Virus record (IMG/VR): IMGVR_UViG_3300016457_001358 | Coordinates: 1 to 63,208 of that record | DNA from: a virus | Strand: one strand, 5' to 3' | DNA length: 63,208 bases | Part shown: one piece after another, positions 5,067 to 56,857 of the stretch | Position numbering within the stretch: the stretch's first letter is position 1 | Layout: the number at the start of each line of letters is the position of its first letter | Notes under the pieces: model-generated | Database searches by the model: none | The model's input: the letters and a program-made list of their open reading frames with translations, nothing else | What the model was told of the DNA's origin: nothing | Position numbers and translations under genes: made by a program

Positions 5067-5206
5067 TGGTCGAGTTCAAGAAGTTCCAAGACGCATACAT
5101 GGAGTTGAGGGAGCGATACATCAAGGACTTGGGCATGGATTCGTATTCGGCTTCGGACTTGGCCTACAAGGAGGCGAGGAAGATATATGATAGAGAAACT
5201 GCTTGA
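5066..5206 (+). CDS. hypothetical small protein
   Basis: ATG at 5066 in frame 4997..5206. Confidence 0.3.
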   Translation: MVEFKKFQDAYMELRERYIKDLGMDSYSASDLAYKEARKIYDRETA

Positions 5207-5390
5207 CGGGAAGGTCGCCAAGTATCACCCCGAGGAGGACAAGGTGTTTGTCCACGACAGGCTGAACGACAGATGCGAGGACATAGTGATGACCTTCACG
5301 AAGGAGGAAATAGAAAAACTCTACAGAATGTTCCCGGAAAGAAAAAAAGGGCTGAAGGAGTATCTGCAGGCAATCTTCCCCGTGCTTTGA
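5187..5390 (+). CDS. hypothetical protein
   Basis: 67 aa ORF. Confidence 0.3.
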   Translation: MIEKLLDGKVAKYHPEEDKVFVHDRLNDRCEDIVMTFTKEEIEKLYRMFPERKKGLKEYLQAIFPVL

Positions 5391-5464
5391 GAAACCAGAC
5401 CAGAACGAAGCGGTTAGCGTCCCTCCTCTGCTCTGCTTCTTTAGGTCTGGCTCGAAAAAGGCGG

Positions 5465-6143: not shown

Positions 6144-7724
6144 GTGATATTTATGGAATTTGAAAAAGTTATGGAAGATTTTGCAAGAAGCTTTATAGAG
6201 AGAAGAGCTAAAAACGAAAACTTCGATATGTCGGAGCACTCGTTTTATACTCACAGTCCGGAGCAAGATTTTCTATCAGTACTGTTCACGGGATATATTC
6301 AAAATTTTTACTACATGAGTTCTGCCGAAGTTTTCTCCTATTCCGTGCCGTTGCACAAAGAAATCATCAAAAAAGATATTGACTTTTACATTCAAAGTCT
6401 CCATGTCGCCAGAGAAATATCCGCAATGAAAGATCAGGTTTTAATAGGTTTGTTATTGCTGTCCAAATGCGAAATGAGAGACGATCTTTTTGATCTGTTG
6501 GTAGATTTGCTATCAACATTTCCGCCAAACCAGGTGGTTAGAAAGTTCGTCAATACAAAAAGAAAAGACAGATCTCTGTTCGGTGGTTTCGGCTCTTTTG
6601 AAAAAAGATTGATAGCCAAAGTTTTTGAAACATGGAAAGAAAAAGGATTGCTTGACTATTATTTCGCAAAGTATAGAAGATATGTCCAACAATTAGTGAA
6701 CCTTTCGCATATAAAAATCGAAAAAGAATTATTCGGATGGTTGAGTAGCCCGACCCAGTATCAAGGCAAAGAGGGGTATCTGAACAAAATAAAAGAGTTT
6801 TATCGTTCCAAAAATATACATGATCTGCCCGACAAGGCTCCCTTTGAAATAGTGAGAAGCTTCATCAAAAAAGATGATTGGAAGCCCGAGTTGCTGGAAA
6901 AATGCGACATCACGGCCAACACGGTAGTTTTGCAGGCGACAAGCCTTTACTCCGCATTTAAAAATGAGATGCTGCCGTATGTGAAAAGAGCGGTGAACAA
7001 AAAGGTTACCGCAGATAAGATACTCAAAGCCTTGATAATGGCAGAAATAAAAGAGCACCACGAACTGGCCGCGGAATTAGCCAAAGCTTATGCAGAAAAG
7101 GTTAAAACAACATACAAAGATCTGCTATTGCCCTTGGACAACGCAAGCATTTGCGTCGTTCTCGATGCTTCGGGAAGTATGGAACCCGAATCGTTAAGAG
7201 GCATGTTTTTAAAAGGTTTGAGTTGCATCGCGCCGTTTTCTCCGATAATAAAATCGTTAATATTGTTCAGCGATGAAGCGGGAGATGCGGATGTCAGATT
7301 CCTTTCGACGTGGGAAGGTTTATTGAAACTCATGCAACTTGCTGACAATTCATACAATAACTCTACCAACATAGTCGCCGGATTGTCACGCGCACTCGAA
7401 AAAGCCAAACAAAAAGAAATAAACGCGGTTATTTTAGTTACCGATGAGCAGGCAAACGTGGTTTCTTCGAGCGACACCGAAATGGATTTAATTAAAAAAT
7501 TGCTGGATATGGGCATCCAAGTAATCGTAATTAATCCAACGCCGTATCCGGTGAAGATAACGGATATTTCAGACAAGAGGCTCATTTATATTCCTTCTCC
7601 AAATCCCGAAGCATTGAAGGGGGCGCTGAGATTGTCTCAAATTGTAAATGCAAAATTGCAAGCCAAACCGTTGCTTGAAAAAATCGCAAGCGGCGCAAAG
7701 AAAAAGAAGAAAGAAAATGAATAG
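6144..7724 (+). CDS. vWA-domain protein with Ro60-like (TROVE + vWA) architecture
   Basis: C-terminal vWA with MIDAS (VVLDASGSM..NSTN..VTDEQ); ~330 aa helical N-domain with KYRRYVQQLVNLSHIK resembling the Ro60 TROVE segment. Confidence 0.55.
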   Translation: MIFMEFEKVMEDFARSFIERRAKNENFDMSEHSFYTHSPEQDFLSVLFTGYIQNFYYMSSAEVFSYSVPLHKEIIKKDIDFYIQSLHVAREISAMKDQVLIGLLLLSKCEMRDDLFDLLVDLLSTFPPNQVVRKFVNTKRKDRSLFGGFGSFEKRLIAKVFETWKEKGLLDYYFAKYRRYVQQLVNLSHIKIEKELFGWLSSPTQYQGKEGYLNKIKEFYRSKNIHDLPDKAPFEIVRSFIKKDDWKPELLEKCDITANTVVLQATSLYSAFKNEMLPYVKRAVNKKVTADKILKALIMAEIKEHHELAAELAKAYAEKVKTTYKDLLLPLDNASICVVLDASGSMEPESLRGMFLKGLSCIAPFSPIIKSLILFSDEAGDADVRFLSTWEGLLKLMQLADNSYNNSTNIVAGLSRALEKAKQKEINAVILVTDEQANVVSSSDTEMDLIKKLLDMGIQVIVINPTPYPVKITDISDKRLIYIPSPNPEALKGALRLSQIVNAKLQAKPLLEKIASGAKKKKKENE

Positions 7725-7742: not shown

Positions 7743-7874
7743 ATGCTAACAACTATTGACATCGAAAGATTGAAAGAACTCAAAAAAATAGCAATTGATA
7801 GGAACATGACTCTGCGGGATCTTGTAAACAAAATCATCAACGATTATTTGGAGCGTGAGCAATATGGCGCGTAA
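7743..7874 (+). CDS. small ribbon-helix-helix-like protein
   Basis: 43 aa hand-delimited ORF; helical DNA-binding-like composition. Confidence 0.3.
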   Translation: MLTTIDIERLKELKKIAIDRNMTLRDLVNKIINDYLEREQYGA

Positions 7875-7968
7875 AAGATGCCCATACTGCAAGGACGGAA
7901 GAATAGTGAGAAGCCATGAAAAGCACATTGCGTTTTGCTCGTTGTGCGGTCACGAGTTCAAGTATTGA
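7864..7968 (+). CDS. zinc-ribbon protein
   Basis: MARKRCPYC...CSLCGH; overlaps previous stop. Confidence 0.35.
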   Translation: MARKRCPYCKDGRIVRSHEKHIAFCSLCGHEFKY

Positions 7969-8105
7969 GAAACCGAGCCAGACATTCACGCACCTCTGAC
8001 GAGTGGGTCGTCCCCGAAAGGGATTACTGCCCGTGAGTCCCATTCAAGCGTTCACCGTATTGACCTCTTTATTTCTGGCTCGGCTCAAAATGCCCATGAG
8101 GTGAT
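7966..8105. ncRNA. candidate structured non-coding element X, copy 1
   Basis: GC-rich island; shares 5' gagaaaccgag and 3' ttggctcggctcaaaatgccc with 53942..54031; GNRA-type hairpin ccc-gaaa-ggg. Confidence 0.25.
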
Positions 8106-8108
8106 ATA

Positions 8109-8234
8109 ATGGCAGAATTTTATGGAAGATGCGAACGTTGCGGAATGGAAGTCGATTGGGACGATATAGCAGGAGAAATAGCGAACGTGGGTTTTGTCTG
8201 TAGATTGTGCTGGGAAGAATTTAGAGAAAGATAG
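8109..8234 (+). CDS. zinc-ribbon protein
   Basis: CERCG...CRLC in a 41 aa ORF. Confidence 0.35.
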   Translation: MAEFYGRCERCGMEVDWDDIAGEIANVGFVCRLCWEEFRER

Positions 8235-8388
8235 GCTCAAAATGCCTCAAACAGCCCGCCCAAGTAGGCTCCAGCCGATTGCGGAGGGACGCCTCCGCCA
8301 GAGGGCGAAAAAAGTCTGCCATTGCCCTCGCAAGAGGTTAAGGGCCTGTCTCCCACAATGGCAGGGGCTTGGGAGAGATGGTGATAAA
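8235..8388. ncRNA. candidate structured non-coding element Y, copy 1
   Basis: GC-rich; inverted repeats ctgccattg/caatggcag and ggaggg-acg-cctcc; homologous to 54017..54180. Confidence 0.2.
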
Positions 8389-8868
8389 ATGAAAGATAGT
8401 GAGTTTAAACCTATTATTGATGAAATTAAAAGACAATATGACCTACAAATGAAAATGGACGATTCTCATGATACTAAAATAGGCATCATGCTTGGTTTTA
8501 TTCTTATTGTTCTTGCCCAAATAACTCTAAGTGAAACGTTTTTAAATGAGATAATAAAAAATCAGATTTCGTTAATTATTTTTACTGTTGGTCTATTGAG
8601 TATATTATGCGCAACTTATTTTGGAATAAGAGCATATTTTATTAGAAAATATAATGTCGGACCGAAAATTTTTGATTTGGTTGAGCAATATAGAAAAGGA
8701 GAAAAAAGAGATTATAATAAAGTAATTTCAAGAAAAATTTACGATGCTTTTGTTGAAAACACCAGCATCTCTCAAAATAAAGCAAACCGTATTAAGAAAA
8801 TGTTTGTTTCGTTTTTTGTAGGGTTTGTGTTGATAACAGTCTCGAAAATTATTTCGATGGTGATTTAA
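8389..8868 (+). CDS. membrane protein
   Basis: ATG at 8389 in frame 8194..8868; several hydrophobic helices. Confidence 0.45.
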   Translation: MKDSEFKPIIDEIKRQYDLQMKMDDSHDTKIGIMLGFILIVLAQITLSETFLNEIIKNQISLIIFTVGLLSILCATYFGIRAYFIRKYNVGPKIFDLVEQYRKGEKRDYNKVISRKIYDAFVENTSISQNKANRIKKMFVSFFVGFVLITVSKIISMVI

Positions 8869-9077: not shown

Positions 9078-9248
9078 ATGAAATGCCCATACTGCGGAAA
9101 CAGGCTGAAAACTTTATTTTACTATACGACAAAGCCCAAACACAAAAAGAACAACACAAAATTTGCATACTGCGAAAAATGTGATAAAGTCTTCAGAATA
9201 ATTGTTGCGGATACAGAAACAACTGAGAGGGTGAAAGAAAATGAGTGA
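9078..9248 (+). CDS. zinc-ribbon protein
   Basis: MKCPYCG...CEKC. Confidence 0.35.
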   Translation: MKCPYCGNRLKTLFYYTTKPKHKKNNTKFAYCEKCDKVFRIIVADTETTERVKENE

Positions 9249-9537
9249 AGAAAAACCTTTGAAATTGGAAGAATTAATTAAATTGATAGAAGAAGAATTT
9301 ACAGAGAAAATACAAAAGATAGATGCAAATCACGAAATAAGATGGTTATGTATTGATTATTATAGGTGGCAGACAATCAAAGACAAAATCAAACAACAAA
9401 ACAGATTAGCAGTTCAGGGATTGCTTGAGGATATTGATGAAGTAGAATTAAAAAACAAAACTTTGTTAGACTTACATTATGAAATTAGACAAAAAATCAA
9501 AAAATGGTTTCCTGTTGAAGAAGGCGAGAGAAAATGA
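9241..9537 (+). CDS. hypothetical protein
   Basis: 98 aa charged ORF. Confidence 0.4.
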   Translation: MSEEKPLKLEELIKLIEEEFTEKIQKIDANHEIRWLCIDYYRWQTIKDKIKQQNRLAVQGLLEDIDEVELKNKTLLDLHYEIRQKIKKWFPVEEGERK

Positions 9538-9611
9538 TAGGAGATGACCCTTTGATAAGAGATTGGATAGAGAAGATAAAAGAGGATACAAATAAAGGTG
9601 AAAGAAAGTGA
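9534..9611 (+). CDS. mini-ORF (MIGDDPLIRDWIEKI...) with a near-identical copy at 55669
   Basis: ~45 nt identical at 9534..9580 and 55669..55715. Confidence 0.25.
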   Translation: MIGDDPLIRDWIEKIKEDTNKGERK

Positions 9612-9718
9612 GTGAAACCAATATAATCACGAAAAGATGCCCATACTGCGGAAAATTATTCGACTGCTATTATGACATCGGATTTGCGATTCATAAAGCA
9701 TGGTGTAAAAAAAGGTGA
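9608..9718 (+). CDS. zinc-ribbon protein (GTG start)
   Basis: KRCPYCG..C..C; same motif family as 7864 and 9078. Confidence 0.25.
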   Translation: MSETNIITKRCPYCGKLFDCYYDIGFAIHKAWCKKR

Positions 9719-9725
9719 AAAGAAA

Positions 9726-10001
9726 ATGAGCGAAAAGAAAACACTCAAATTCGTTCACACAGCCTTTTGCTTAGAAATTCTCACAGAGCTCTTAAAAAAT
9801 GATTCGGTGCATTTCAAGATTGTGAATCCGCTTCCCAAAGATGCGAAGTTTTTCGATTTGAAATACGATTCTTCGACAAGAACCCTTCATCTATTCTTCA
9901 CGTCAGAAAAAGGCTACGAGCGAAAGGAGGGAGAGCTTCTTTCCTCAGTTCCAGTCACGGATATTTTATTCAAAACGGTGAAAAGCCATGAATTTAGATA
10001 A
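9726..10001 (+). CDS. hypothetical protein
   Basis: ATG at 9726 in frame 9672..10001 preceded by aaggtga. Confidence 0.4.
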   Translation: MSEKKTLKFVHTAFCLEILTELLKNDSVHFKIVNPLPKDAKFFDLKYDSSTRTLHLFFTSEKGYERKEGELLSSVPVTDILFKTVKSHEFR

Positions 10002-10164
10002 ACTTGTCGAAATGTGTTTTTTCATAGGGCTTCTCAGCCTTTTGTTATTCGTTGTCGGGGCATTGCTTTCGTCCGAGACGCTGGCGCTCCTTTTCTTTTG
10101 CCTGTTCATTTTCGCGACGGCGGTCGAAGTGGTGCTGATGATTTTCATCACCGCTACGAATTGA
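9988..10164 (+). CDS. small membrane protein (paralogue at 56291)
   Basis: 58 aa, two TM-like segments; ~200 nt similar to 56288..56490. Confidence 0.4.
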   Translation: MNLDKLVEMCFFIGLLSLLLFVVGALLSSETLALLFFCLFIFATAVEVVLMIFITATN

Positions 10165-10184
10165 GATGCTGAAGGCGAGAGAAA

Positions 10185-10382
10185 ATGAGTGAAAAACCGA
10201 AAGGCATAGCTTGCTTGTTTTGCGGAAAAGAGGTTTGGACGACCGACCCAAGCAAAAGCCCGGACGAATTGGCGAAGCAATACAAGTGGTGGAAAGTCAA
10301 GATTTCCAACGAAACCGACTCGTTTTCCGGCTATTGTTGCCGGGATTGTTTCAAAAAATTCGATACTGACTTACTGACTTAA
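10185..10382 (+). CDS. zinc-binding protein
   Basis: CLFCG...CCRDC. Confidence 0.4.
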   Translation: MSEKPKGIACLFCGKEVWTTDPSKSPDELAKQYKWWKVKISNETDSFSGYCCRDCFKKFDTDLLT

Positions 10383-27267: not shown

Positions 27268-30200
27268 TCAAATGAGTTTGAGAATCTTTTGATACCGATA
27301 CACGGTGTTTTTTGACAGTCCAGTCGCCAGACTGATGCTTCTTCTGGATTCGTTTTTTGCCGTGAGCTCGATTATCTGCTTCAATATTTTGCCCGTAACC
27401 TTCACGGGCTGACCGGCTTTTTTGATTTTGTCGAAAAGCATGATCCACGTTTGAGGCCCGATGTGCGCGATGTGGAATGAATACTCGCCCGTCATATCGA
27501 TCAGCTTCTTTGGCGGTTTAACCAGCACTGGAGCTCCCTCTTTTTTCGCCATTTGCAAAGGCTTCAGGTTAACATCGCCCTTGTCCGATCTGAACTCTAT
27601 TCTTATTTTGTGATCGGTCACTTCGTGGATGGTGTACACGCCTCTGGAAATTATGATAAAGACCCCGGGATAGCGCGTTTTAGCCGTGCCGATCTTATGC
27701 GTGACCCCGTCGAAGAACAGCCAGTCCACCGGCTCCGTCAGCTTGATCGTTCCTCTGACATGCGAACTGTCGGCATAGTTCGATTCTTCCACCGTTGCGG
27801 GAGTGAACAGCGTTATCCCTTCGAGGCAACCCTTGAGTTTGCCTTTTTTGAACAATGCCAGCGCGTCATCGTAGGTCAAGACTTTGCAAGTTACTTCGTC
27901 GGGAACAAACAACCTGACATCCCGGTGCGTTTTTCGCCCTATGCTGTGCAGGTGGATGACATAAGGCATCCACAGATTGTTGTTCATGATTTTTTTGAAA
28001 TTTCTCTGCATTCTCTCCGGGAAGTCCCTGATTATTTTGACTTCTTTGGCTTCCTCCGGCTCTTTTTTCAACTCTTCGTGCTTCACCGCAACGCCGATCG
28101 CGGTGACTATGTCCTCGAGTTCGTCTATTGTCGAAGTTTCCTTTTTTTCCGTAATATGATTGACCCTTGGCTTGTGAATCGAGTACCACCTGCCTTTGTC
28201 CGATTCGTGCCTCCAAACCTCTTCGACCAAAATGCTCAGTATGGCTCCCTCTTCGTATTTTTCGGATGTGTTGAACGTTTTGCCGAGAACCAGCACCTTT
28301 TTTCCTTTGAAATCGGTTATCTTGTCGGGGTTGATGCCGGCGTCCTTTTCCCTCAGATAGACTCCCACGAGATAGTTGTAAAGATTCTTTTCCTTGGGAA
28401 TTCGGTCCAGTATCACCACATCTATATCGACGAGGTTGCGAAATTTCAGCCACGACTTATGCTCTCCGAAATGATACTTTGCCGACAGGTCTTTGATCAC
28501 GGCCCCTTCCGAGTAAGGCAGATTCTTTGCCCACTCTATCGCCTTTCTGACTTCATCGACCCCTTTCGCAAACTTTCTCTGAATGAGCAAGGTTCTGGGA
28601 CCGAAGTTCAATTTATTCAAATATTTGATGCGCTCGTGTAAGCTCAGGTTCGTGATATCATTATCGAAGTAAACGATGTCCCATATAAATATCTTAATGT
28701 TTTTGTCGTCCACCTTTTTTCCGCTTTCGATCGCTCCTATGAATTTCATCAATGTGTTTCTTCCGAGCTGCTTGCCGTCGTCGAAAGGAACTATCTCGCC
28801 GTCCACTATGAAATTAGCATCGCTCATCTTCGATATCGCATCGCACAGAGTCGGAAACGCAAACGTCAGCTCTTTTTTTTGCTCTGAAAATATCTTCACT
28901 TCGCTTCCCTTTTTGTGGCAGCACACGTGAAATCCGTTTATCTTTTTCTCTACGGAGTATTCGATATCATTCCTGATCTTTGCCATTATGTCATCGATTT
29001 TGTAATAAGCCGAGCCCAGCGGTTTTTGAGGAAGATAAGGCTCGAACAGCCGAACCGAATCTCCGAGAATTATTTCGTTCATTTCCACTATTTTGGTCGG
29101 TTTGATGCGCTCCAGTTTCAAATCGTAAAGCGGAATGAATGAGTCGTGGCTGCCCTCCGCATCTCCCCATATCATGTGAATCTTCGGTATCAACTCGGCG
29201 TAGCCGTTTTCTTCGAGCATTTTCAGCAGCCTGACTTCGATCGCCCTTCTTATATACGAGTTCTTCTCCGCTCGCAATCTGATTTGCAAGTCCACATCGT
29301 TCGGTATGTGACCCTTTGGTCTTTTCACGGTAGAACCGACCAGAGAAATGCAGTCCTTGACTATTTTGAAGTCCTTGAATGCGTCCAGAAAATCGAGATT
29401 CGTCAAATCAACTTTCTTGTGTATCATCTCCTTTTCTCCGGTTATTCGCTTATACAGATCCAATGACCATTTCTTGTAGGTTTCCGGGTGAAACTCAATG
29501 CCCCTTTTCTTGAGCTCCTCGTATATCATTTTGGCGAGATTGACGAGAGTTTCTTCCGAATACGGTGTTTTCTCTCCTCTTTTCAGCTTGCTGTAATGGG
29601 CGCACACCAGTCTGTAATCGTCCTTCAAAACATCCGTGCTCAACTTTTTGGGATCATACGTCTCCGGGTTCTGTATCAAATTCGCTTCGACGTTCTGGAA
29701 CTCAAATTTTTCCAACACGCTTTCGATTTTTTCGGCGAGCGAATCCCACCAGCTTTCCCAACCTTTCTCGCCGTACCACACTTTGCCCGCAACGACCACT
29801 CTTGGTCTGTTCTCGGCGCCGATGTCGCATTTGGAATACAAGCCGTCCTGCTTGTCCAGCTCTTTGCTGATATCTTCGGCTTTGTCATCGTCGGCCGGGT
29901 TCGCCATCCTGAACACTATGAAGGCGACCCTCTCGGGCGACTTTCCCTCGTCGCTCGCCCTTATCTCTATCTCCTTGATCCCGTTCAGTTGCTCGAGCCA
30001 CTCGTCCTTTATATGAACATCGATATCGTTGAAACCGTTCCACGACTTCTTCGGACCGTCCGTGCGGCCGCTCAACCAGCCTCCCGGCGGCAATTTGTTG
30101 TATACCGCGTAGTATGCGAATGTGGGCGAATTCATTTTCGGCGTGTAATCCGCATTCAAAAATTCGATATCCTTCACGAATGTTTGCGTGCCTTTTTTAA

Positions 30201-32106
30201 ACTTCCACCTTCGCGGAGCTGAAAACTTCGTGATCCATTCAAACGAGAATTCGTAAAAATGCTTTTTGTCTTTCCATCCCCATTTTTCAATCTCGCTCTC
30301 GCTGATCAAATGAAGATTCGCCCTCTCGTCGAACTGCTTTTTCGTGATTTTGTTTGGCGCATGAAGCCTGATAACGCCGTAAACAAACTCTTTGTCCACG
30401 ACATAAAGAGCTTTGTCCACCATCTCGGGATAAGGTCTCGTCTTTATTATCAGCGATTTTTTTCCGCCCCATAACCATCTGGCGTGAGGCGACGGCAAAT
30501 AAATTCCCTCTCTCTGCTCGAACAGTTGCAACTCCACCAACTTCTGACTCGCGTCAATTGAATCGGGATCGTAGTTGCTGAATACCAGCTCGTATTCGGG
30601 CTTGTCGTTCTTGGCGAAGGTTCTTTTGTGGAGCATCTTTTTCATGTAAAAATCTTTGAACAAATCCCTTATCCAGTCGGCATCATTCAATGTTAAAAGA
30701 AACTTTCCCTTCACCGATTTCAAAATGTCGCGGAGCTCCCGCAGGTTTTCTTTCGTGAATTTCAAACCGTTTTTTTCGAACTTCCACTCGTCGGGATAAG
30801 GGGGATCGACAAAGAAAAACGTCTGCGAGGAGTCGAACCTCTTTATGATCGATTTGTAGTCCTGGTTGTATATCTTCACGCCCTTCAATCTGTTCCTCAG
30901 CGCGTCCCATCTGTTCAAAATCCCGAGCAACTTTTCTTTGTTGAACCAGCCGTATGTTTCTCTGTCTATTCCGTAAGAGTATCTCGTGAGATACAAAAAT
31001 TTGGCGAATCTCTCGGCATCGTTCTTCGGCTTCAATTCTTTGATCCTGAAAAAAGTCGGTTTGTCGTTTTTCCATGCGTATTGCCTGAGCCTTTGGGCAT
31101 CTTCGGCGCTCGTGCTTTGTATGAATTTGTACGCGAACGCGATCTCTGGATCGAGATCGTTTAAAACCTCGATTTCGCTCGGGCTCTTTCTCCAGAACAC
31201 CGCAGCTCCGCCGGCGAACGGCTCGCAGTAAATTTTGTGCTGTGGCATCATCTTGATCAATTTTTCCGCGACCCTGCTCTTGCCGCCCGGGCTGCCGAAC
31301 GCCTGTTGCATGAGTTCATGATCTTTGTATAGCACCATGCCGTCGTAAGACAAAATGATTTCGCTGCTCGATTTCCCCTTTATCTGGTTCCAGTATCGCC
31401 GAATCTGTTTTTCGGCCTCGTGATGGTCGGGATACGAGCGCCCCGCTTGTATCAGCACGAATTTGTCTGGATTGTATGCTTGAGCGTATGCCAGCGAATT
31501 GGCGACATTCAGATGCCCTCTCAACATCTTGCCCGTGGCAACTATCTCGCCTCCCCTTTCTTCCAAATTGTAAATGGCCGCATCCAGAATCATTATGTCC
31601 GCGTTTTTGAGATAGCGCTCGTTTTCTGCGGGGACCGATTCCATGTCCTCGGCATAAACCAAGCCGTCGATCCTGTACCCGTAGCAGGGAAATTTCTTGC
31701 CGGTCGGAAACGCCTCCGCGTGAATCACCCTGAAAGGAATTATCTTGAATCCCATTATTTCGTTCGTCTGGCGAGGAGTTATCGGTTTGAGAACGATGTT
31801 TTTGAACTTCTTTTGTAGCCTTTCGTTCGCCAGCACATCCGGGGGAGCGTAAACGTTTATGGGCTCGGTCAGCCACTTGTCCAGATCGGGCAGACCGCCA
31901 ATGCAGTCGGCGTGAGCGTGCGTCAGCAGGCAGAAGTCTATTTTCTCGATGCCGTTCTTCTCCGCTTGCTCCCTGAAGTGCTTGGTGACATCGATTATGA
32001 AGGATTTTCCGCCCTTTTCTACATAGATGGAGCTATTGGTGCGCCTGTTTTTTCCTCTTCCTTCAACTAACTGAGTCGGACCCGAGCCCAGCACAACTAT
32101 TTTCAT
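27268..32106 (-). CDS. giant multi-domain (polyvalent-type) virion-module protein: MBL-fold hydrolase + Dam-like N6-adenine MTase + ligase-like nucleotidyltransferase
   Basis: LLTHAHADCIGG; GGKSRVAEKL..YCEPFAGGAAVF..FFFVDPPYPDEW; EKKINGFHV..FIVDGEIV..SWLKFRN; likely start MKIVVLGSG at 32106. Confidence 0.75.
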   Translation of the reverse strand: MKIVVLGSGPTQLVEGRGKNRRTNSSIYVEKGGKSFIIDVTKHFREQAEKNGIEKIDFCLLTHAHADCIGGLPDLDKWLTEPINVYAPPDVLANERLQKKFKNIVLKPITPRQTNEIMGFKIIPFRVIHAEAFPTGKKFPCYGYRIDGLVYAEDMESVPAENERYLKNADIMILDAAIYNLEERGGEIVATGKMLRGHLNVANSLAYAQAYNPDKFVLIQAGRSYPDHHEAEKQIRRYWNQIKGKSSSEIILSYDGMVLYKDHELMQQAFGSPGGKSRVAEKLIKMMPQHKIYCEPFAGGAAVFWRKSPSEIEVLNDLDPEIAFAYKFIQSTSAEDAQRLRQYAWKNDKPTFFRIKELKPKNDAERFAKFLYLTRYSYGIDRETYGWFNKEKLLGILNRWDALRNRLKGVKIYNQDYKSIIKRFDSSQTFFFVDPPYPDEWKFEKNGLKFTKENLRELRDILKSVKGKFLLTLNDADWIRDLFKDFYMKKMLHKRTFAKNDKPEYELVFSNYDPDSIDASQKLVELQLFEQREGIYLPSPHARWLWGGKKSLIIKTRPYPEMVDKALYVVDKEFVYGVIRLHAPNKITKKQFDERANLHLISESEIEKWGWKDKKHFYEFSFEWITKFSAPRRWKFKKGTQTFVKDIEFLNADYTPKMNSPTFAYYAVYNKLPPGGWLSGRTDGPKKSWNGFNDIDVHIKDEWLEQLNGIKEIEIRASDEGKSPERVAFIVFRMANPADDDKAEDISKELDKQDGLYSKCDIGAENRPRVVVAGKVWYGEKGWESWWDSLAEKIESVLEKFEFQNVEANLIQNPETYDPKKLSTDVLKDDYRLVCAHYSKLKRGEKTPYSEETLVNLAKMIYEELKKRGIEFHPETYKKWSLDLYKRITGEKEMIHKKVDLTNLDFLDAFKDFKIVKDCISLVGSTVKRPKGHIPNDVDLQIRLRAEKNSYIRRAIEVRLLKMLEENGYAELIPKIHMIWGDAEGSHDSFIPLYDLKLERIKPTKIVEMNEIILGDSVRLFEPYLPQKPLGSAYYKIDDIMAKIRNDIEYSVEKKINGFHVCCHKKGSEVKIFSEQKKELTFAFPTLCDAISKMSDANFIVDGEIVPFDDGKQLGRNTLMKFIGAIESGKKVDDKNIKIFIWDIVYFDNDITNLSLHERIKYLNKLNFGPRTLLIQRKFAKGVDEVRKAIEWAKNLPYSEGAVIKDLSAKYHFGEHKSWLKFRNLVDIDVVILDRIPKEKNLYNYLVGVYLREKDAGINPDKITDFKGKKVLVLGKTFNTSEKYEEGAILSILVEEVWRHESDKGRWYSIHKPRVNHITEKKETSTIDELEDIVTAIGVAVKHEELKKEPEEAKEVKIIRDFPERMQRNFKKIMNNNLWMPYVIHLHSIGRKTHRDVRLFVPDEVTCKVLTYDDALALFKKGKLKGCLEGITLFTPATVEESNYADSSHVRGTIKLTEPVDWLFFDGVTHKIGTAKTRYPGVFIIISRGVYTIHEVTDHKIRIEFRSDKGDVNLKPLQMAKKEGAPVLVKPPKKLIDMTGEYSFHIAHIGPQTWIMLFDKIKKAGQPVKVTGKILKQIIELTAKNESRRSISLATGLSKNTVYRYQKILKLI

Positions 32107-33380
32107 TCGCGATCTCCATGAATTTTGGGCATGCCCTCTATCTCCCTGATGTAATCCTCGGTTTCCGGATTGGGAGTTATCAAACCATGCTTCGCGCATC
32201 TCGCTATTCTCTCCATCTTCGAATCGAGCTCCTCCAGAGAAATCTCCCCCCACTGTATTTTCACGGGCGGAACGCGGTTAACCTGGGAAATCCTTCTTAT
32301 CACTTTGGATTCGAGAACTCCCACCGTTCTCTCTATTATGTCCTTGAGCCTTATCTTGAAAATGTACTCCTGCCTGTTGAGAGTGGATCGGTTGGTCGTT
32401 TCTCCGAGCCCCGTCGCGAACGCTTTGGGTATGCCCATGCCGGTGATCATGACATCCATCCAGTAGTCGAGAAAGTTTCTTATTTTGGCGGACTGCCTCG
32501 ATTCCAGCAGACCGATCTTCAACCAGCTGGGATGGGAGAACGCGGTCAGGCTGTTGATGTCCTTCAGCTGCTCCGCAACCTTGGTTATCTGCTCCGGCGT
32601 GGCATCGTGAGTTTCGTCGCCCACCGACGCGTCGATCAGCGGAAAGCCGACCCTGTAGCTGGCGTTGGCGAAACCGTCCTCGACCGCCAGCTGCCTGAGA
32701 TACGACTTGTAAATCGGCTCGATCAATCCGATTCCGTAGAAGCCGTCCCCGACCTCGTACAGCTTGAAATGGGCGACCCTTTCCGGTGGCAGAAATATCT
32801 TGTTGCCCTGCAAAGAAACCTGGGGCGGGGGAGCGATTTTGTTGTTCACCCTTTCCATCGACGGAACCGACTGCGTGTATCCGACCGGGTTCCCGTAATC
32901 ATCCAGAGCGATTCTGTCCGAGCTGTCCTTCGCGTAGTCGAACCTTTTCGGATCTATGATGTCCAGATCGACTATCGCGCTCTTTTTCAAGCTCCCCTTC
33001 TCGATCGTGCCGTAGATTATCTCCCAAGGGCAGAACCCGTAGATGAACTGGTACTGAAATGTTTTTGTGAGAATGTTCCGCCAGTTCGTTTCTCCGCCCG
33101 TGTATCCGACATTGTCGAAAAACTCCGAAAAGTATTCGACGGCCTCTTTGCTGCCCTTCAAAGAGTACCCGGCGCTCATGATGATCTGGGTCAGCACGTT
33201 GATCGAGTTGTGTATTATTCCGTTTTTCGTGTAGCATTGCTCGAGCTCCTTCAGCTGGCCGGGAACCATCCTTTCCAATTCCGGCGTCGCTTTCTTGGCG
33301 ACGGGGACCGGCGAAATCTTCGAAACGGCCGAAGCCAGATTGAAGGACCTTCTGCCTCCGAACAAATCCGACAGCAGCAT
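32103..33380 (-). CDS. putative portal protein
   Basis: 425 aa immediately downstream of terminase large subunit; position and size only. Confidence 0.5.
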   Translation of the reverse strand: MLLSDLFGGRRSFNLASAVSKISPVPVAKKATPELERMVPGQLKELEQCYTKNGIIHNSINVLTQIIMSAGYSLKGSKEAVEYFSEFFDNVGYTGGETNWRNILTKTFQYQFIYGFCPWEIIYGTIEKGSLKKSAIVDLDIIDPKRFDYAKDSSDRIALDDYGNPVGYTQSVPSMERVNNKIAPPPQVSLQGNKIFLPPERVAHFKLYEVGDGFYGIGLIEPIYKSYLRQLAVEDGFANASYRVGFPLIDASVGDETHDATPEQITKVAEQLKDINSLTAFSHPSWLKIGLLESRQSAKIRNFLDYWMDVMITGMGIPKAFATGLGETTNRSTLNRQEYIFKIRLKDIIERTVGVLESKVIRRISQVNRVPPVKIQWGEISLEELDSKMERIARCAKHGLITPNPETEDYIREIEGMPKIHGDRE

Positions 33381-51241: not shown

Positions 51242-51265
51242 TTGTAAATCAGATACATTTATCTA

Positions 51266-51345
51266 ACAGAATATATATGTTTCATCAAACAATTGGTGTA
51301 TACCATTCTTCTATATATAATGTAGAGAATTTGGCGATATGCTAT
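51266..51345. promoter_or_regulatory. conserved promoter/operator region, copy 2 (upstream of wHTH and P-loop genes)
   Basis: cagaatatatatgtttcatcaaacaattggtgtataccattcttctatatataatgtagagaatttggcgat. Confidence 0.5.
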
Positions 51346-51631
51346 GGAAACAGTAAAAGACTACATAAGCAGAGTGGCGCTGTTCAAAATAGCGGTTTAC
51401 CTTCATCGCAATCAAGGACGGCGCTTGAATATCACGACCATATCCAAGAGGTGCGATATAACATTCGCACACACGGTGAAAATGATAAGATTGATGCACG
51501 CGAACGGATTCGTAGTTATGGCAAGGCGTGGAAGGGAAGTGGCGGTGTTTCTGACCGACGATGGAAAGGAATTCGTGGAGTGCGTCGCAAATATGTTCAG
51601 GATTCTCAACATAGACTCGGAATCGGCGTGA
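51344..51631 (+). CDS. winged-helix transcription regulator
   Basis: 95 aa, wHTH-like core ISKRCDITFAHTVKMIRLMHANGFVVMARRGREV. Confidence 0.5.
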   Translation: METVKDYISRVALFKIAVYLHRNQGRRLNITTISKRCDITFAHTVKMIRLMHANGFVVMARRGREVAVFLTDDGKEFVECVANMFRILNIDSESA

Positions 51632-53929: not shown

Positions 53930-53941
53930 TACATGCTGGTA

Positions 53942-54180
53942 TGAGAAACCGAGTCAAATATCCATCTACAAGCGGGAAAGTCCTAGCCTCTCACCTACAT
54001 CACCTTTTCTTGCTTGGCTCGGCTCAAAATGCCCTAAACAGTTCGCCATAGAGTATGCGGGTTCGATTCCCGCTGCAAAGGAATGGTGACCACTATGGCG
54101 AATCGCGGCGATCTCCTGCTTCCTGCCGGACGCGCCAGAGAAGCTCGCCGCGAGGCTGGGGGAGAGAAGTAAAGCCGGTG
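53942..54180. ncRNA. candidate structured non-coding element (X+Y fused copy) with tRNA T-arm-like hairpin
   Basis: GC-rich island; gcggg-ttcgatt-cccgc hairpin; 8-bp stem cgcggcga/tcgccgcg; homologous to 7966..8105 and 8235..8388. Confidence 0.3.
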
Positions 54181-54185
54181 GTTAT

Positions 54186-54464
54186 GTGGCAAAAAGAAAA
54201 AAATTAGAAAAAAAATACAAGGAGCGCGAAGTTCTTGAACGCGAATTAAAGCGATTGGTTATACCTAACAAAAAATTGAAACAAGAAGCAGAAAGCGTAG
54301 GATTGGAATGGAGAAGCGGACAATATGAAGGTGTCGTGGGTACGTTTACAGACAAAGAGTTTTTCATGAAGAAATTTGGAGAACAAGCCATGCTTGCTAC
54401 AGTTTTGAAACTAATCGAGGAATGGAAAAACAAAATAGAAAAAATAGAGAAGCAAACAAAATAA
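54186..54464 (+). CDS. hypothetical protein
   Basis: 92 aa K/E-rich ORF, GTG start. Confidence 0.4.
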   Translation: MAKRKKLEKKYKEREVLERELKRLVIPNKKLKQEAESVGLEWRSGQYEGVVGTFTDKEFFMKKFGEQAMLATVLKLIEEWKNKIEKIEKQTK

Positions 54465-54491
54465 TTAAAAAAAGAAATTATGGACATCAAT

Positions 54492-54563
54492 AGGCGGTTG
54501 GTGAAATCAGGCATCATAATAGGCTCATAACCTATTGTTTCGGTTCAAATCCGAAACCGCCTA
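54492..54563 (+). tRNA. tRNA with anticodon CAU (Met or Ile2)
   Basis: Hand-folded cloverleaf: 7-bp acceptor aggcggt/accgcct, D-loop with GG, anticodon loop cuCAUaa, T-arm ttcgg-ttcaaat-ccgaa; no encoded CCA. Confidence 0.55.
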
Positions 54564-54573
54564 TGGTAATGGA

Positions 54574-55034: not shown

Positions 55035-55185
55035 GCGTGGGTAGTCTAAGGCAGGACGCCCCAAAGCGATGCCGTGAGGGTGGCAGGGGAGTGCGAGCGT
55101 CGTGTTAGTGGGGCGATGCGGGTGAAAATCCCGCCCCGCGCTTGGTGATGAGAAATGACCGCGCTCAACTGGCCGAGGTGAGGAG
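55035..55185. ncRNA. candidate structured RNA in GC-rich island
   Basis: Much higher GC than flanks; hairpin gcggg-tgaaaat-cccgc; no convincing ORF on either strand. Confidence 0.2.
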
Positions 55186-55484: not shown

Positions 55485-55676
55485 ATGAAGAAAATTAAAT
55501 CCGGACTCGAAAAACATTTCAAAATTGAGACTTGGGTCGAGAAAAATCAATATGGCTATCTGATAAAGCAAAAACATGAATCAGAAGATTACCCCAATCT
55601 TTTCGTGGAAGAAACAGTCATTCTAACTCCGAGAGTCATTAAAAAACTAAAAGTGAAAGAAAATGATAGGAGATGA
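55485..55676 (+). CDS. hypothetical protein
   Basis: 63 aa ORF preceded by ggtgaaagaaaatg. Confidence 0.35.
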   Translation: MKKIKSGLEKHFKIETWVEKNQYGYLIKQKHESEDYPNLFVEETVILTPRVIKKLKVKENDRR

Positions 55677-55740
55677 CCCTTTGATAAGAGATTGGATAGA
55701 GAAGATAAACGAAACCACAGGAAATTAAAGGCGATGAAGA

Positions 55741-55956
55741 ATGGAATTCAGCTTAAACCTTGCTTGTATTTTAGAAAAGATGGGAAACGAATTTGATGAG
55801 ACATTAGAAGATTTGGGAGTAGGGTGGAGAAAAGTTGCAGAGATGATAGTTAAAGGAGAGATGGAGTTAAGAATAAAATCTACTCCGATTGGAGATTATC
55901 TTGTGATAGAAGTTCCAGATAAGTTTATTAATGCTCAAAGTGAAAGAAATGAATGA
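55741..55956 (+). CDS. hypothetical protein
   Basis: 71 aa ORF. Confidence 0.3.
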   Translation: MEFSLNLACILEKMGNEFDETLEDLGVGWRKVAEMIVKGEMELRIKSTPIGDYLVIEVPDKFINAQSERNE

Positions 55957-56206
55957 ACCAAAGCCTCTTAGTTTGGATAAAGAGAGTCCATATCCAGAGG
56001 ATATATTTCCAGAAATAACAAAAGAGGAATGGGAGAGAATAGATAAACTGCTGAAAAAGGAGATGGGCTTTTCACTCGACAGAGTTGCTGGAAACATAAA
56101 CAGAAAGATGTGGAATAATATGAAGGAATGGTTTACGGAACGCATCAAATCCGCAGTCCAGGGATTGAAACAGGATATCGAAAAGAGGAAAGGAGATAAC
56201 TGCTGA
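55931..56206 (+). CDS. hypothetical protein
   Basis: 91 aa ORF. Confidence 0.3.
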   Translation: MLKVKEMNEPKPLSLDKESPYPEDIFPEITKEEWERIDKLLKKEMGFSLDRVAGNINRKMWNNMKEWFTERIKSAVQGLKQDIEKRKGDNC

Positions 56207-56290
56207 TGAAGGCAAAAGATACACATACGATTATTGTATTCATTTAATCAAAAAATGGTTTCCTGATGCTCTTGGAGACGGTGAAAAGCC

Positions 56291-56476
56291 ATGAATTTAG
56301 ATAAAATTGTCGAAATCTGTTTTCTCATAGGGTTTCTCAGTCTTCTGTTATTCGTTGTCGGGGGCATCGCTTTCGTTCCAGACGCTGACGGTCCTTTCAT
56401 TCTGCTTATTCATTTTTGTAACAGCAGTCGTTATAGTGCTGATGATTTTCATCACCGCTACGAATTGAGATGCTGA
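56291..56476 (+). CDS. small membrane protein, diverged paralogue of 9988..10164 (3' end in a different frame; possibly decayed)
   Basis: N-terminal MNLDKIVEICFLIGFLSLLLFVVGG nearly identical to first copy. Confidence 0.3.
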   Translation: MNLDKIVEICFLIGFLSLLLFVVGGIAFVPDADGPFILLIHFCNSSRYSADDFHHRYELRC

Positions 56477-56488
56477 AGGTGAAAAAAA

Positions 56489-56857
56489 ATGGAATGTAAA
56501 GCAAAATTCGATTCAAAAGAAATAAAGAACCAATTGGTGCTGGCTGCTGGAACATATAACGGAGAGCTATATTTTCCACCCGAAACAATCAAAAAAACAG
56601 TTTCACTTACAAAACGAATACCCGTTTATTTGAATTCCACACAAGACAACAAACATTTAGTAGGTGCGGCAACAAATTTCAGATTAAAAAATAACAAAAT
56701 GTATTGTGATGTAAAAATTGAACCTGAATATTTTGAATCATTTGCCTTAGATTTAAAAAACGGAGAATCTAACGGCGCAACAATAAAAAGGATTGAAATT
56801 GCAGGTTTAAGCATAATACCGAACAAAAAAGTAATTAAGAAAGAGCGAGCGAAATGA
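56489..56857 (+). CDS. hypothetical protein
   Basis: 122 aa ORF. Confidence 0.4.
   Translation: MECKAKFDSKEIKNQLVLAAGTYNGELYFPPETIKKTVSLTKRIPVYLNSTQDNKHLVGAATNFRLKNNKMYCDVKIEPEYFESFALDLKNGESNGATIKRIEIAGLSIIPNKKVIKKERAK

What the first reader, a model, noticed from the sequence alone, without database searches (positions are those of the whole stretch)
53942..54180. Repeated structured element with a tRNA T-arm mimic but no cloverleaf
This ~240 nt GC-rich island contains a perfect T-arm-like hairpin (gcggg-ttcgatt-cccgc) followed by an 8-bp GC stem (cgcggcga ... tcgccgcg) enclosing further helices. I could not build an acceptor stem or anticodon arm around the T-arm, so it is not a canonical tRNA. 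Its 5' part matches 7966..8105 and its 3' part matches 8235..8388; at that locus the two halves are separated by a zinc-ribbon gene (8109..8234). It could be a tRNA-like regulatory RNA, a Y-RNA-like molecule, or an attachment-site remnant.
Basis: seen in the sequence. Interest (0 to 1): 0.6.

Follow-up and report, generated by a model that had tools for sequence, protein, structure and literature searches.

The report
Bulged-stem RNA modules beside viral Ro60
The "tRNA-like" island is one copy of a family of structured non-coding RNA modules in an archaeal tailed virus; their conserved base has the shape cut by the archaeal RNA-splicing endonuclease, and two of three copies flank the virus's Ro60 gene, so they may be the first candidate Y-RNA-like partners of an archaeal-virus Ro60.

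Summary
The window is a circular 63.1-kb archaeal tailed-virus genome.

- **What is repeated.** It is an 80-120-nt hairpin ("module 1"), not the T-arm hairpin. Its base reads outer helix / UGAG / AAA bulge / inner helix ... inner helix / CUCR / AAA bulge / outer helix.
- **What that shape is.** A 4-bp helix flanked by two 3-nt bulges on opposite strands is the archaeal bulge-helix-bulge (BHB) motif.
- **Copies.** There are three in the window (5385-5460, 7962-8094, 53938-54033) and one at the orthologous site of a related virus. Compensatory changes occur in the inner and outer helices.
- **The T-arm hairpin.** It sits in a second, variable module closed by YYCGCC/GGCG. Full-length versions of that module (~190 nt) keep a second strict BHB in a related virus and in an unrelated archaeal element, where it lies next to a Ro60 homologue.
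- **The neighbouring gene.** The 523-aa gene between two window copies is predicted to fold like Ro60 (TROVE + vWA).

Best reading: BHB-delimited structured RNAs cut from polycistronic transcripts, probably linked to Ro60 (Y-RNA-like). Cleavage and Ro60 binding are inferred, not shown. It is not a tRNA, and no evidence supports an attachment-site remnant.

The parts
53938..54033 (+). Copy B, module 1: BHB-type hairpin. Outer helix 53938-41/54030-33 (GGUA/UGCC); central helix 53942-45/54023-26 (UGAG/CUCA); bulges AAA at 53946-48 and 54027-29; inner helix 53949-57/54014-22. The segment predicted to be excised is 53948-54028 (81 nt).
   Evidence: the unconstrained MFE reproduces the motif; covariation.
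54034..54103 (+). Copy B, reduced module 2: conserved linker CTAAACAG (54034-41); 10-bp closing stem TTCGCCATAG/CTATGGCGAA (54042-51/54093-102); T-arm-like hairpin 54057-54073.
   Evidence: Homology of the closing stem to module 2 of L025 and L140.
54104..54152 (+). Copy B, GC-rich hairpin closed by the 8-bp stem CGCGGCGA/TCGCCGCG. Lineage-specific; absent from copy A.
54153..54185 (+). Purine-rich tail AGGCTGGGGGAGAGAAG...GGTGGT, the ribosome-binding region of the gene starting with GTG at 54186. Strain variants swap the downstream gene exactly after GGCTGGGGGAGA.
   Evidence: L034, L035.
7962..8094 (+). Copy A, module 1: UGAG 7966-69 (its UGA is the stop codon of ORF 7855-7968); AAA 7970-72; inner helix CCGAGCCAGA/UCUGGCUCGG; CUCA 8084-87; AAA 8088-90. 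The outer helix is out of register (5-bp central helix plus a 2-nt bulge in the MFE). Predicted excised segment 7972-8089.
8082..8246 (+). 13-nt direct repeats GGCTCAAAATGCC (8082-8094 and 8234-8246) flanking an inserted 41-aa zinc-ribbon ORF (8109-8234) that has its own GAGGTGAT ribosome-binding site.
8247..8388 (+). Copy A, short module 2 (TCAAACAG 8247-54; closing stem CGCCC 8257-61 / GGGCG 8303-07, followed by AAAAAA) and a GC-rich 3' leader ending in GGGAGAGATGGTGAT before the ATG at 8389.
   Evidence: (A3 vs L025 z=4.0).
5385..5460 (+). Copy C, module 1 only: CUU-UGAG-AAA-CCAGACC ... GGUCUGG-CUCG-AAA-AAG. The UGA of UGAG is the stop codon of ORF 5187-5390. Predicted excised segment 5394-5456 (63 nt). 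The next gene starts at 5465.
6153..7724 (+). Gene predicted to fold like Ro60 (alpha-helical TROVE-type ring plus C-terminal vWA). It lies between copy C (about 700 nt upstream) and copy A (about 240 nt downstream).
   Evidence: pLDDT 87.7, pTM 0.83; the top 13 PDB hits are all Ro60, E 1e-10 to 3e-8, about 520-545 aligned columns.

Best explanation
The island is one copy of a composite, structured non-coding RNA encoded on the coding strand between genes of an archaeal tailed virus.

**Module 1 (the truly repeated part).** This is a long hairpin whose base has the geometry of an archaeal bulge-helix-bulge (BHB) motif. It starts at, or in frame with, the stop codon of the upstream gene.

**Module 2.** It is closed by a YYCGCC/GGCG stem and preceded by YYAAACAG. 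It is variable:
- About 190 nt with its own strict BHB in a related virus and in an unrelated archaeal element.
- Reduced to a 62-nt stem-loop carrying the T-arm-like hairpin in this copy.

**Most likely mechanism.** The viral polycistronic transcript folds these junctions. The host tRNA-splicing endonuclease (EndA) cuts between the 2nd and 3rd nucleotide of each bulge. An RNA ligase (host RtcB, or the virus's Rnl1-type ligase) then joins the exons and/or circularises the released 63-190-nt RNAs.

Two of the three window copies flank the virus's Ro60-like gene, and a full module 2 lies beside a Ro60 homologue elsewhere. The released RNAs are therefore plausibly the Y-RNA-like partners of that Ro60.

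**Shown:**
- The family and its copies.
- The helices, with covariation and strand-specific G-U pairs.
- The BHB geometry.
- The Ro60-like fold prediction and the neighbourhood.

**Inferred:**
- Transcription as RNA.
- EndA cleavage and ligation.
- Ro60 binding.
For: 1. **Exact geometry.** Copies B, C and the L025 orthologue all show a 4-bp helix, two 3-nt bulges on opposite strands, and flanking helices of 3-5 and 7-9 bp. The unconstrained MFE of copy B reproduces it. This matches the published definition of BHB (PMC4090602; PMC7714728).
2. **Covariation.** Among four copies, 86.8% of cells are paired. Six pairs show changes on both sides. 0/500 shuffles reach the observed pairing or covariation score, and slid controls give 20-50% paired. 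For example, CCGAGCC/GGCUCGG becomes CCAGACC/GGUCUGG, and GGUA/UGCC becomes AGGUG/CGUUU or CUU/AAG. Several G-U pairs exist only on the + strand.
3. **Boundaries.** Similarity between copies starts at UGAG and ends at CUCRAAA, that is, at the predicted splice sites.
4. **A second BHB.** The related virus carries one immediately downstream, with the highest score seen (50; maxima over shuffled versions of the window were 35-44). Its homologue in an unrelated 74-kb contig is about 70% identical over about 190 nt. It keeps the geometry through compensatory changes: GUUG/CGGU becomes AUUG/CAAU, GGUAU/AUACC becomes GGCAU/AUGCC, the outer helices are unrelated, and the bulges are AAA/ACU in both.
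5. **Negative control.** 34 IMG/VR sequences match the primary-sequence pattern, and none has the helices.
6. **Ro60 link.** See for the fold, and for the neighbourhood. Other archaeal Ro60-homologue loci also carry GC-rich RNAs, some with T-arms, directly beside the gene. Bacterial and phage Y RNAs are encoded next to Ro60, and some mimic tRNA (PMC4201824).
7. **Precedent.** BHB introns outside tRNA and rRNA are known from cbf5 mRNA and from the HVO_1309 5' UTR.
Against: - BHB-like geometry on its own is not rare: 30 hits in the window against about 32 in shuffles. Copy B's score of 41 is within the range of shuffle maxima. The case therefore rests on only 4-5 related sequences.
- Copy A's outer helix is out of register.
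- The fold z-scores are modest, -1.0 to -2.6.
- Excision would have no effect on coding, because the stop codon stays in exon 1.
- There is no RNA evidence of any kind.
- Ro60 link: copy B and its L025 orthologue are not next to a Ro60 gene, and the roughly 45 kb known of that related virus shows none.
- Loci around two closer Ro60 homologues (L005, L007) carry no copy of this element family. At least four Ro60-homologue loci (L007, L009, L139, L141) carry a different RNA motif, GGGGNUUCAGCR, that the window lacks.
- There is no Rfam Y_RNA or YrlA hit and no GNCGAAN0-1G motif.
- No further family members were found in IMG/VR, JGI metagenomes or GTDB genomes.
Confidence: 0.5

Rival explanations
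1. Y-RNA-like ligand only. The bulged stem is the docking site of the viral Ro60, as the bulged helix of Y RNAs is. The variable apical parts, including the T-arm mimic, tether other factors. The resemblance to a BHB is coincidental and no splicing endonuclease is involved.
For: - A gene predicted to fold like Ro60 lies between copies C and A.
- A module 2 homologue lies 230 nt downstream of a Ro60 homologue in L140.
- Y RNAs are 80-130 nt with a long 5'/3' stem and are encoded beside Ro60. YrlA carries T- and D-arm mimics (PMC4201824).
- T-arm-bearing GC-rich RNAs lie directly upstream of another archaeal Ro60 homologue.
Against: - No Rfam Y_RNA or YrlA match. No GGUCCGA or GNCGAAN0-1G motif.
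- Copy B and the L025 orthologue are not near a Ro60 gene.
- Other archaeal Ro60-homologue loci have a different RNA family.
- From my own recollection of vertebrate Y RNA sequences (not checked with the tools here), the Y-RNA stem has a 1-nt and a 3-nt bulge separated by 5 bp. That differs from the conserved 3/4/3 spacing seen in two unrelated modules here.
Confidence: 0.2
2. Purely cis-acting intercistronic elements. These would be hairpins that end, stabilise or translationally couple neighbouring cistrons, or structured 5' leaders of the downstream gene. At the DNA level they would double as boundary sequences where gene cassettes are exchanged. No trans-acting RNA product would be made.
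For: - All copies sit between co-directional genes.
- The upstream stop codon lies in the central helix, and the next ribosome-binding site follows within 6-20 nt in copies A and C.
- Pyrimidine-rich tracts occur inside the hairpins.
- Strain variants swap the downstream gene right after the element, an ORF is inserted with a 13-nt duplication, and several contigs break inside the elements.
Against: - A generic hairpin does not explain the conserved 3-nt/4-bp/3-nt junction, kept across copies and in a second, unrelated-sequence module in two different mobile elements.
- Module 2 is about 190 nt with many conserved internal blocks, which is typical of a folded RNA gene.
- Downstream genes differ between copies, so it is not a gene-specific leader.
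Confidence: 0.15
3. Decayed tRNA gene or attachment-site remnant. The T-arm would be what is left of a tRNA gene or of an attP core copied from a host tRNA.
For: - A perfect canonical T-arm at 54057-54073.
- Real tRNA-type genes lie nearby: tRNA-Met at 54491-54564, and a tRNA-shaped gene at 55035-55142.
- Relaxed ARAGORN draws a weak cloverleaf at 54007-54082.
Against: - That cloverleaf has a mismatched acceptor stem, a 3-bp D stem and an arbitrary 5-nt 'intron'.
- The Rfam tRNA model gives no hit on the + strand even at E<=10.
- No integrase was found among the scanned ORFs.
- The T-arm plus 3' flank has no exact match in 185,579 genomes.
- The T-arm is absent from copies A and C, so it cannot explain the repeat.
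Confidence: 0.03

Closest known systems
Archaeal bulge-helix-bulge (BHB) introns and processing sites cut by the splicing endonuclease EndA. Known sites: tRNA introns, 16S/23S processing stems, the cbf5 mRNA intron, and the 46-nt intron in the 5' UTR of Haloferax HVO_1309.
   Same: - A 4-bp helix flanked by two 3-nt bulges on opposite strands, with flanking helices.
- An excisable hairpin of 63-190 nt.
- Location in an untranslated part of an mRNA, as for HVO_1309.
   Different: - Encoded by a virus.
- Located in intergenic spacers directly after stop codons.
- Forms a sequence family with several copies per genome, sharing UGAG/CUCR and AAA bulges.
- No cleavage data.
Y RNAs and bacterial/phage YrlA RNAs, the partners of Ro60 (Rsr).
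   Same: - Encoded close to a gene predicted to fold like Ro60.
- Long stem formed by the two ends, with bulges.
- A variable apical part that in one copy carries a T-arm mimic with the T-arm placed first, as in YrlA.
   Different: - No sequence or covariance-model similarity, and no Ro-binding motif.
- Embedded between protein genes rather than being a separate small gene.
- One copy is far from the Ro60 gene.
- The host is archaeal.
Ro60 genes noted in Asgard-archaeal 'Nidhogg' viruses from hydrothermal sediments (bioRxiv 10.1101/2021.07.29.454249).
   Same: An archaeal virus from hydrothermal sediment that encodes a TROVE + vWA Ro60 and an RNA ligase.
   Different: That work names the protein only and proposes no RNA partner. 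Whether this virus is related to Nidhogg viruses was not tested.
Transposed tRNA introns and split-tRNA leaders of Thermoproteales and related archaea (sequence-related BHB introns at several sites).
   Same: Several sequence-related BHB-bounded inserts in one genome, with similarity ending at the splice sites.
   Different: Here the inserts are not in tRNA genes. The comparison rests on my recollection of that literature and was not tested.

Membership tests
Archaeal BHB motif / EndA substrate | 4-bp central helix flanked by two 3-nt bulges on opposite strands (5' strand: outer-central-bulge-inner; 3' strand: inner-central-bulge-outer). | tested here: met
   Met in copies B, C, L025 module 1, L025 module 2 and L140 module 2. 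Copy A deviates, with a 5-bp helix and a 2-nt bulge in the MFE.
Archaeal BHB motif / EndA substrate | Flanking helices h and h' that hold the junction. | tested here: met
   Outer/inner helix lengths in bp are 4/9 (B), 3/7 (C), 5/9 and 10/10 (L025), and 4/8 (L140). Covariation is shown.
Archaeal BHB motif / EndA substrate | More frequent or stronger than chance. | tested here: inconclusive
   Genome-wide counts equal those in shuffles. Only the 44541 hairpin in the window (47) and L025 module 2 (50) score above the maxima (35-44) over shuffled versions of the window. Support comes from conservation, not from enrichment.
Archaeal BHB motif / EndA substrate | Cleavage in the bulges and ligation (spliced exons, circular intron). 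| not testable with these tools
   No transcript data are available.
Archaeal BHB motif / EndA substrate | Archaeal host with EndA. | tested here: inconclusive
   The genome carries archaeal-type genes: PCNA, a PolD small-subunit-like protein, TFIIB-type zinc ribbons and DUF7557. The relative's contig was binned with a Hydrothermarchaeota MAG. The host is not identified.
tRNA | Cloverleaf with acceptor, D, anticodon and T arms. | tested here: not met
   No call from ARAGORN at default settings or from the Rfam tRNA model, even at E<=10. Only a poor model appears at relaxed settings. The T-arm alone is present.
Y RNA / YrlA | Match to the Rfam Y_RNA or YrlA models, or to the Ro-binding motif GGUCCGA / GNCGAAN0-1G. 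| tested here: not met
   No Rfam hits. The motif was not found by eye in copies A, B, C or L025.
Y RNA / YrlA | Encoded next to a Ro60 (TROVE + vWA) gene. | tested here: met
   Met for copies A and C in the window and for module 2 in L140. Not met for copy B or for L025.
Y RNA / YrlA | Bound by Ro60. | not testable with these tools
   Needs immunoprecipitation or in-vitro binding.
Ro60 (for ORF 6153-7724) | Ring of HEAT-like repeats (TROVE) followed by a vWA domain. | tested here: met
   AlphaFold model with pLDDT 87.7. The top 13 Foldseek hits are all Ro60 over about 520-545 columns, TM 0.44-0.67. Sequence and profile searches did not detect TROVE.
Integrative-element attachment site | Identity to a host tRNA 3' part, plus an integrase. 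| tested here: not met
   No exact match in 185,579 genomes. No integrase among the scanned ORFs, although that scan was not exhaustive.

The most novel reading that the evidence does not exclude
Archaeal viruses carry a previously undescribed class of Ro60-associated RNAs. These RNAs would be embedded between genes and released, and probably circularised, by the host tRNA-splicing endonuclease at BHB junctions. Module 1 would be a multi-copy, intron-like unit that spreads to UGAGAA|A sites just after stop codons. That would give viral circular RNAs that act as Y-RNA analogues, linking archaeal splicing machinery with Ro60 RNA surveillance.
Probability: 0.2. Interest if true: 0.85.

Novelty: new variant of a known kind. 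Interest (0 to 1): 0.68.

Why it matters
- **BHB substrates.** Outside tRNA and rRNA, the literature I read names only two BHB introns: cbf5 mRNA and one haloarchaeal 5' UTR. A virus-encoded, multi-copy family of BHB-type elements in intergenic mRNA would widen the known substrate range of the archaeal splicing endonuclease. It would also predict virus-derived circular RNAs.
- **Ro60 partners.** Ro60 genes have been noted in archaeal viruses, but no RNA partner has been proposed. These modules, and the different T-arm-bearing RNAs beside other archaeal Ro60 homologues, are concrete candidates. They could be tested by pull-down and by in-vitro cleavage.
- **Caution for tRNA mimicry.** The T-arm that drew attention lies in the variable part of the element, not in its defining part.

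Tried and rejected
- **Known RNA families.** Rfam at gathering and at permissive thresholds found nothing on copy B, copy A or the L025 element.
- **Hammerhead, C/D box, K-turn and RNase P motifs.** I checked these by eye; they were not consistent between copies.
- **tRNA with introns, split tRNA or permuted tRNA.** In-silico removal of the predicted intron from copy B does not give a cloverleaf. The relaxed ARAGORN model is poor.
- **More family members.**
  - Exact and degenerate motif scans of IMG/VR found nothing relevant.
  - A JGI metagenome scan returned 7 chance hits.
  - A gapped BHB pattern in IMG/VR returned 34 chance hits, which I used as a negative control.
  - A GTDB genome scan found only the L025 contig.
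- **Strain contigs.** They carry copies A, B and C unchanged, so they add no covariation. No intron-less alleles were found.
- **Protein-coding intron at 44547-44618.** The idea was that it fuses the ATP-grasp gene in frame to the next ORF. Homologues of the downstream ORF are stand-alone proteins of 116-127 aa. The orthologue in L025 also changes the bulge length. Not supported.
- **Cloverleaf in L025 9085-9160 with a bulged acceptor stem.** I drew it by hand; the MFE does not reproduce it.
- **Ro60 by sequence.** Pfam, NCBIfam, phmmer and a 26-sequence profile against PDB all missed it. Only the structure comparison found it.

Full report
**Context**

The window's first 91 bases repeat at its end, so it is a circular 63,117-bp genome. 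It encodes a large terminase, a Mu-type portal and tail proteins. It also encodes a 1,661-aa protein that fuses a metallo-beta-lactamase fold, a Dam methylase and an ATP-dependent DNA ligase. Other genes include an Rnl1-type RNA ligase, RNase HII, PCNA, a PolD-small-subunit-like phosphoesterase and ParB. The gene content is that of an archaeal tailed virus.

No isolated phage is close. Near-identical contigs come from hydrothermal-sediment metagenomes. A virus about 90% identical is represented by IMG/VR contig 3300013103_000041 (L001, L004) and by CAZSVW010000015.1 (L025). The latter was binned with a Hydrothermarchaeota MAG.

**Checking the observation**

The T-arm-like hairpin (54057-54073) and the 8-bp GC stem (54104-11 / 54145-52) are present. 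ARAGORN at default settings and Rfam find only tRNA-Met at 54491-54564. Rfam gives nothing meaningful on either locus even at E<=10.

The 5' part does recur at 7966-8095 (local-alignment z = 6.4). The 3' parts share only about 27 nt at their start plus a purine-rich ribosome-binding tail. Their interiors, including the T-arm and the GC stem, are not alignable.

The 41-aa zinc-ribbon ORF between the two halves at the second locus is flanked by a 13-nt direct repeat, GGCTCAAAATGCC.

**A longer version in a relative**

The protein encoded just upstream of copy B has an 89%-identical homologue. Its contigs (L025-L028) carry a 600-nt version of the element at the same position:

- The same 5' domain.
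- Then a stem-closed insert of about 190 nt.
- Then CACCTCAAACAG-CCCGCC....
- Then a second GGCTCAAAA followed by a small hairpin and TGCACCTCAAACAG.

Strain variants of the window's own virus keep copy B but swap the downstream gene exactly after GGCTGGGGGAGA. Several contigs also break inside the elements.

**The conserved core is a BHB-type junction**

In copy B the flanks pair as GGUA-UGAG-AAA-CCGAGUCAA ... UUGGCUCGG-CUCA-AAA-UGCC. That is an outer helix, a 4-bp helix and an inner helix, with one 3-nt bulge on each strand. The strand order is that of archaeal hBHBh' motifs. The unconstrained MFE reproduces it. The definition (a 4-bp helix flanked by two 3-nt bulges) is taken from PMC4090602 and PMC7714728.

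A search for the motif found a third copy at 5385-5460: CUU-UGAG-AAA-CCAGACC ... GGUCUGG-CUCG-AAA-AAG. It lies in the 74-nt spacer between two genes.

Position relative to the upstream gene:

- In copies A and C, the UGA of UGAG is the stop codon of the upstream gene.
- In copy B and in L025, it is an in-frame second stop 15 nt after the first.

On a register-true alignment of the four versions, 86.8% of cells pair. Six pairs change on both sides, and 0 of 500 shuffles reach the observed pairing or covariation score. Sliding the partners drops pairing to 20-50%. Several pairs are G-U, which would be A-C on the other strand. The structure is therefore specific to the + strand, the strand of the flanking genes.

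Similarity between copies begins at UGAG and ends at CUCRAAA, which is at the predicted cleavage sites. Copy A is imperfect: its outer helix is shifted.

**How strong is this?**

BHB-like geometry alone is not rare. With G-U pairs allowed, the window has 30 hits against about 32 in dinucleotide shuffles. On a weighted score, copy B (41) and copy C (35) lie within the range of shuffle maxima, 35-44. The argument therefore rests on conservation with covariation, and it is helped by three further results:

1. In L025, a second strict BHB follows the first directly. Its parts are outer UUUUUUCGUU/AACGAAAAAA, central GUUG/CGGU, bulges AAA and ACU, and inner GAAGGUAUUU/GAAUACCUUC. Its score of 50 is above every shuffle maximum.
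2. This "module 2" has a homologue in an unrelated AT-rich 74-kb contig (L140), about 70% identical over about 190 nt. It keeps the same geometry through compensatory changes: central AUUG/CAAU, inner GAAGGCAU/AUGCCUUU, an unrelated outer helix CGCC/GGCG, and the same bulges.
3. 34 IMG/VR sequences match the primary-sequence pattern TGAGAAACC-N45-75-GGCTCRAAA, and none has the helices.

The shared block YYAAACAG-YYCGCC and the downstream GGCG-AAAAAA form the closing stem of module 2. Copy B carries a reduced module 2 (54042-54102) that holds the T-arm-like hairpin. Copy A carries an even shorter one (8257-8307). L025 and L140 carry the full form of about 190 nt.

The T-arm therefore lies in the variable interior. 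A different T-arm-like hairpin, ACGGTTCAAATCCGT, occurs elsewhere in the L025 element. A cloverleaf I drew around it by hand is not supported by folding.

**The neighbouring gene is Ro60-like**

ORF 6153-7724 has a C-terminal vWA domain. Sequence methods gave nothing for its N-terminal 330 residues. It has 34 homologues in archaeal mobile elements.

An AlphaFold model built from 26 of these sequences is confident (pLDDT 87.7, pTM 0.83). Its top 13 matches in the PDB are all Ro60, over the full length, with E from 1e-10 to 3e-8. They include Xenopus and human Ro60, Deinococcus Rsr, the Ro60 of Thermus phage phiLo and a TROVE domain. The next hits cover the vWA domain only.

Copy C lies about 700 nt upstream of this gene and copy A about 240 nt downstream. 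In L140, module 2 lies 230 nt downstream of a Ro60 homologue.

Bacterial and phage Y RNAs are encoded beside Ro60, are 80-130 nt long, have a long terminal stem, and in YrlA mimic tRNA T and D arms (PMC4201824).

Other archaeal Ro60-homologue loci also carry GC-rich RNAs directly beside the gene:

- L009 has two perfect T-arms. One lies in a mascRNA-like tRNA mimic, E = 0.0076.
- L009, L139, L141 and L007 share a GGGGNUUCAGCR stem motif that the window lacks.

A preprint on Asgard viruses notes a Ro60 and an RNA ligase in "Nidhogg" viruses but proposes no RNA partner.

**Weighing the readings**

That these are RNA-level structured elements is well supported. That the junction is a substrate of the splicing endonuclease is the best single explanation of a 3/4/3 spacing conserved in two modules of unrelated sequence. 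There is precedent for BHB introns in mRNA untranslated regions. It remains an inference.

The Ro60 link is suggestive. It holds in two independent Ro60 loci but is incomplete:

- Copy B and L025 are not beside a Ro60 gene.
- Loci around two closer Ro60 homologues (L005, L007) carry no copy of this element family.
- No Y-RNA motif or model matches.

The two ideas are compatible: the RNAs could be released from the polycistronic transcript at the BHB junction and then act with Ro60.

The main rivals are a Ro60 docking stem without endonuclease cleavage, or purely cis-acting intercistronic hairpins and recombination boundaries. A tRNA or attachment-site origin is effectively excluded as the explanation for the repeat.

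**Limits**

- Only four or five distinct sequences support each module.
- No transcript data exist.
- The host is unknown.
- All collection scans for further members came back empty.

Noticed in passing
window 55035-55142 (+): A GC-rich tRNA-shaped gene missed at default settings. It has acceptor GCGUGGG/CCCGCGC, a D arm and a T arm with the odd loop UGAAAAU. Relaxed ARAGORN reads a 38-nt insert in the anticodon-loop region as tRNA-Asn(GUU). The MFE is a cloverleaf. The element is 88% conserved in L004, with compensatory changes in the anticodon and T stems, but the 'anticodon' there is GUC.
   Followed up: partly
window 44535-44625 (+): The highest-scoring strict BHB-type hairpin in the genome: UUUUAA-GGCA-AGA-GAGCGGAAUG ... 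CGUUCCGCUC-UGCC-AUU-UUAAAG. Its score is 47, above all shuffle maxima, and its fold z-score is -3.5. It lies at the end of the ATP-grasp gene. Removing the 72-nt segment would fuse that gene in frame to ORF 44626-44985. However, homologues of the downstream ORF are stand-alone, and the L025 orthologue changes the bulge length.
   Followed up: yes
L009 9590-9965; L139 2905-2995; L141 4650-4725; L007 10045-10120: A different family of GC-rich stem RNAs sharing GGGG(N)UUCAGCR lies directly beside Ro60 homologues in four other archaeal mobile elements. In L009 it is accompanied by two tRNA-like units with perfect T-arms. In L139 a T-arm-like stem seems to have its loop split by a BHB-like insert.
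   Followed up: partly
window 9228-10187 vs 55650-56491: Two collinear paralogous segments, 83-94% identical, each lie 1.3-1.7 kb downstream of an element copy. The roughly 17 kb between them (56.5 kb, through the origin, to 10.2 kb) is absent from the related virus L004/L025. This stretch holds ParB, methylases, the PolD-like gene, copy C, the Ro60-like gene and copy A. That pattern suggests gain or loss by recombination between the paralogous segments.
   Followed up: partly
window 54042-54102 vs L025 9010-9045: Copy B's stem-loop looks like a circular permutation of the 3' hairpin of module 2. Module 2 reads CUAUGGC-GUGAUGGUGA-GCCAUAG-AAUACC; copy B reads GCCAUAG-AGUAU...AAUGGUGACCA-CUAUGGC. 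This is unexplained.
   Followed up: no
L016, L017 (end near window 7995); L033 (54054); L036 (54029): Independent metagenome contigs end inside the elements. One ends exactly at GGCTCAAAA, where the relative's sequence diverges. This suggests population heterogeneity at these points.
   Followed up: no
window 27268-32253 (-): A single 1,661-aa ORF combines a metallo-beta-lactamase-fold nuclease domain, a D12-class adenine methyltransferase and an ATP-dependent DNA ligase domain.
   Followed up: no
window 46234-46296 and 51257-51319: An AT-rich 63-nt repeat, 84% identical, containing TATATA runs. The second copy has a counterpart in L025, and a loose T-arm-like hairpin follows at 51378 in the window and at 4873 in L025. 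Possibly promoter or origin repeats.
   Followed up: no
L025 9568-10212: The related virus encodes an RlaP-family (RNA-repair-associated nucleotidyltransferase) protein about 200 nt downstream of its 600-nt element. The window's virus instead has an Rnl1-type RNA ligase at 39700-40746.
   Followed up: no
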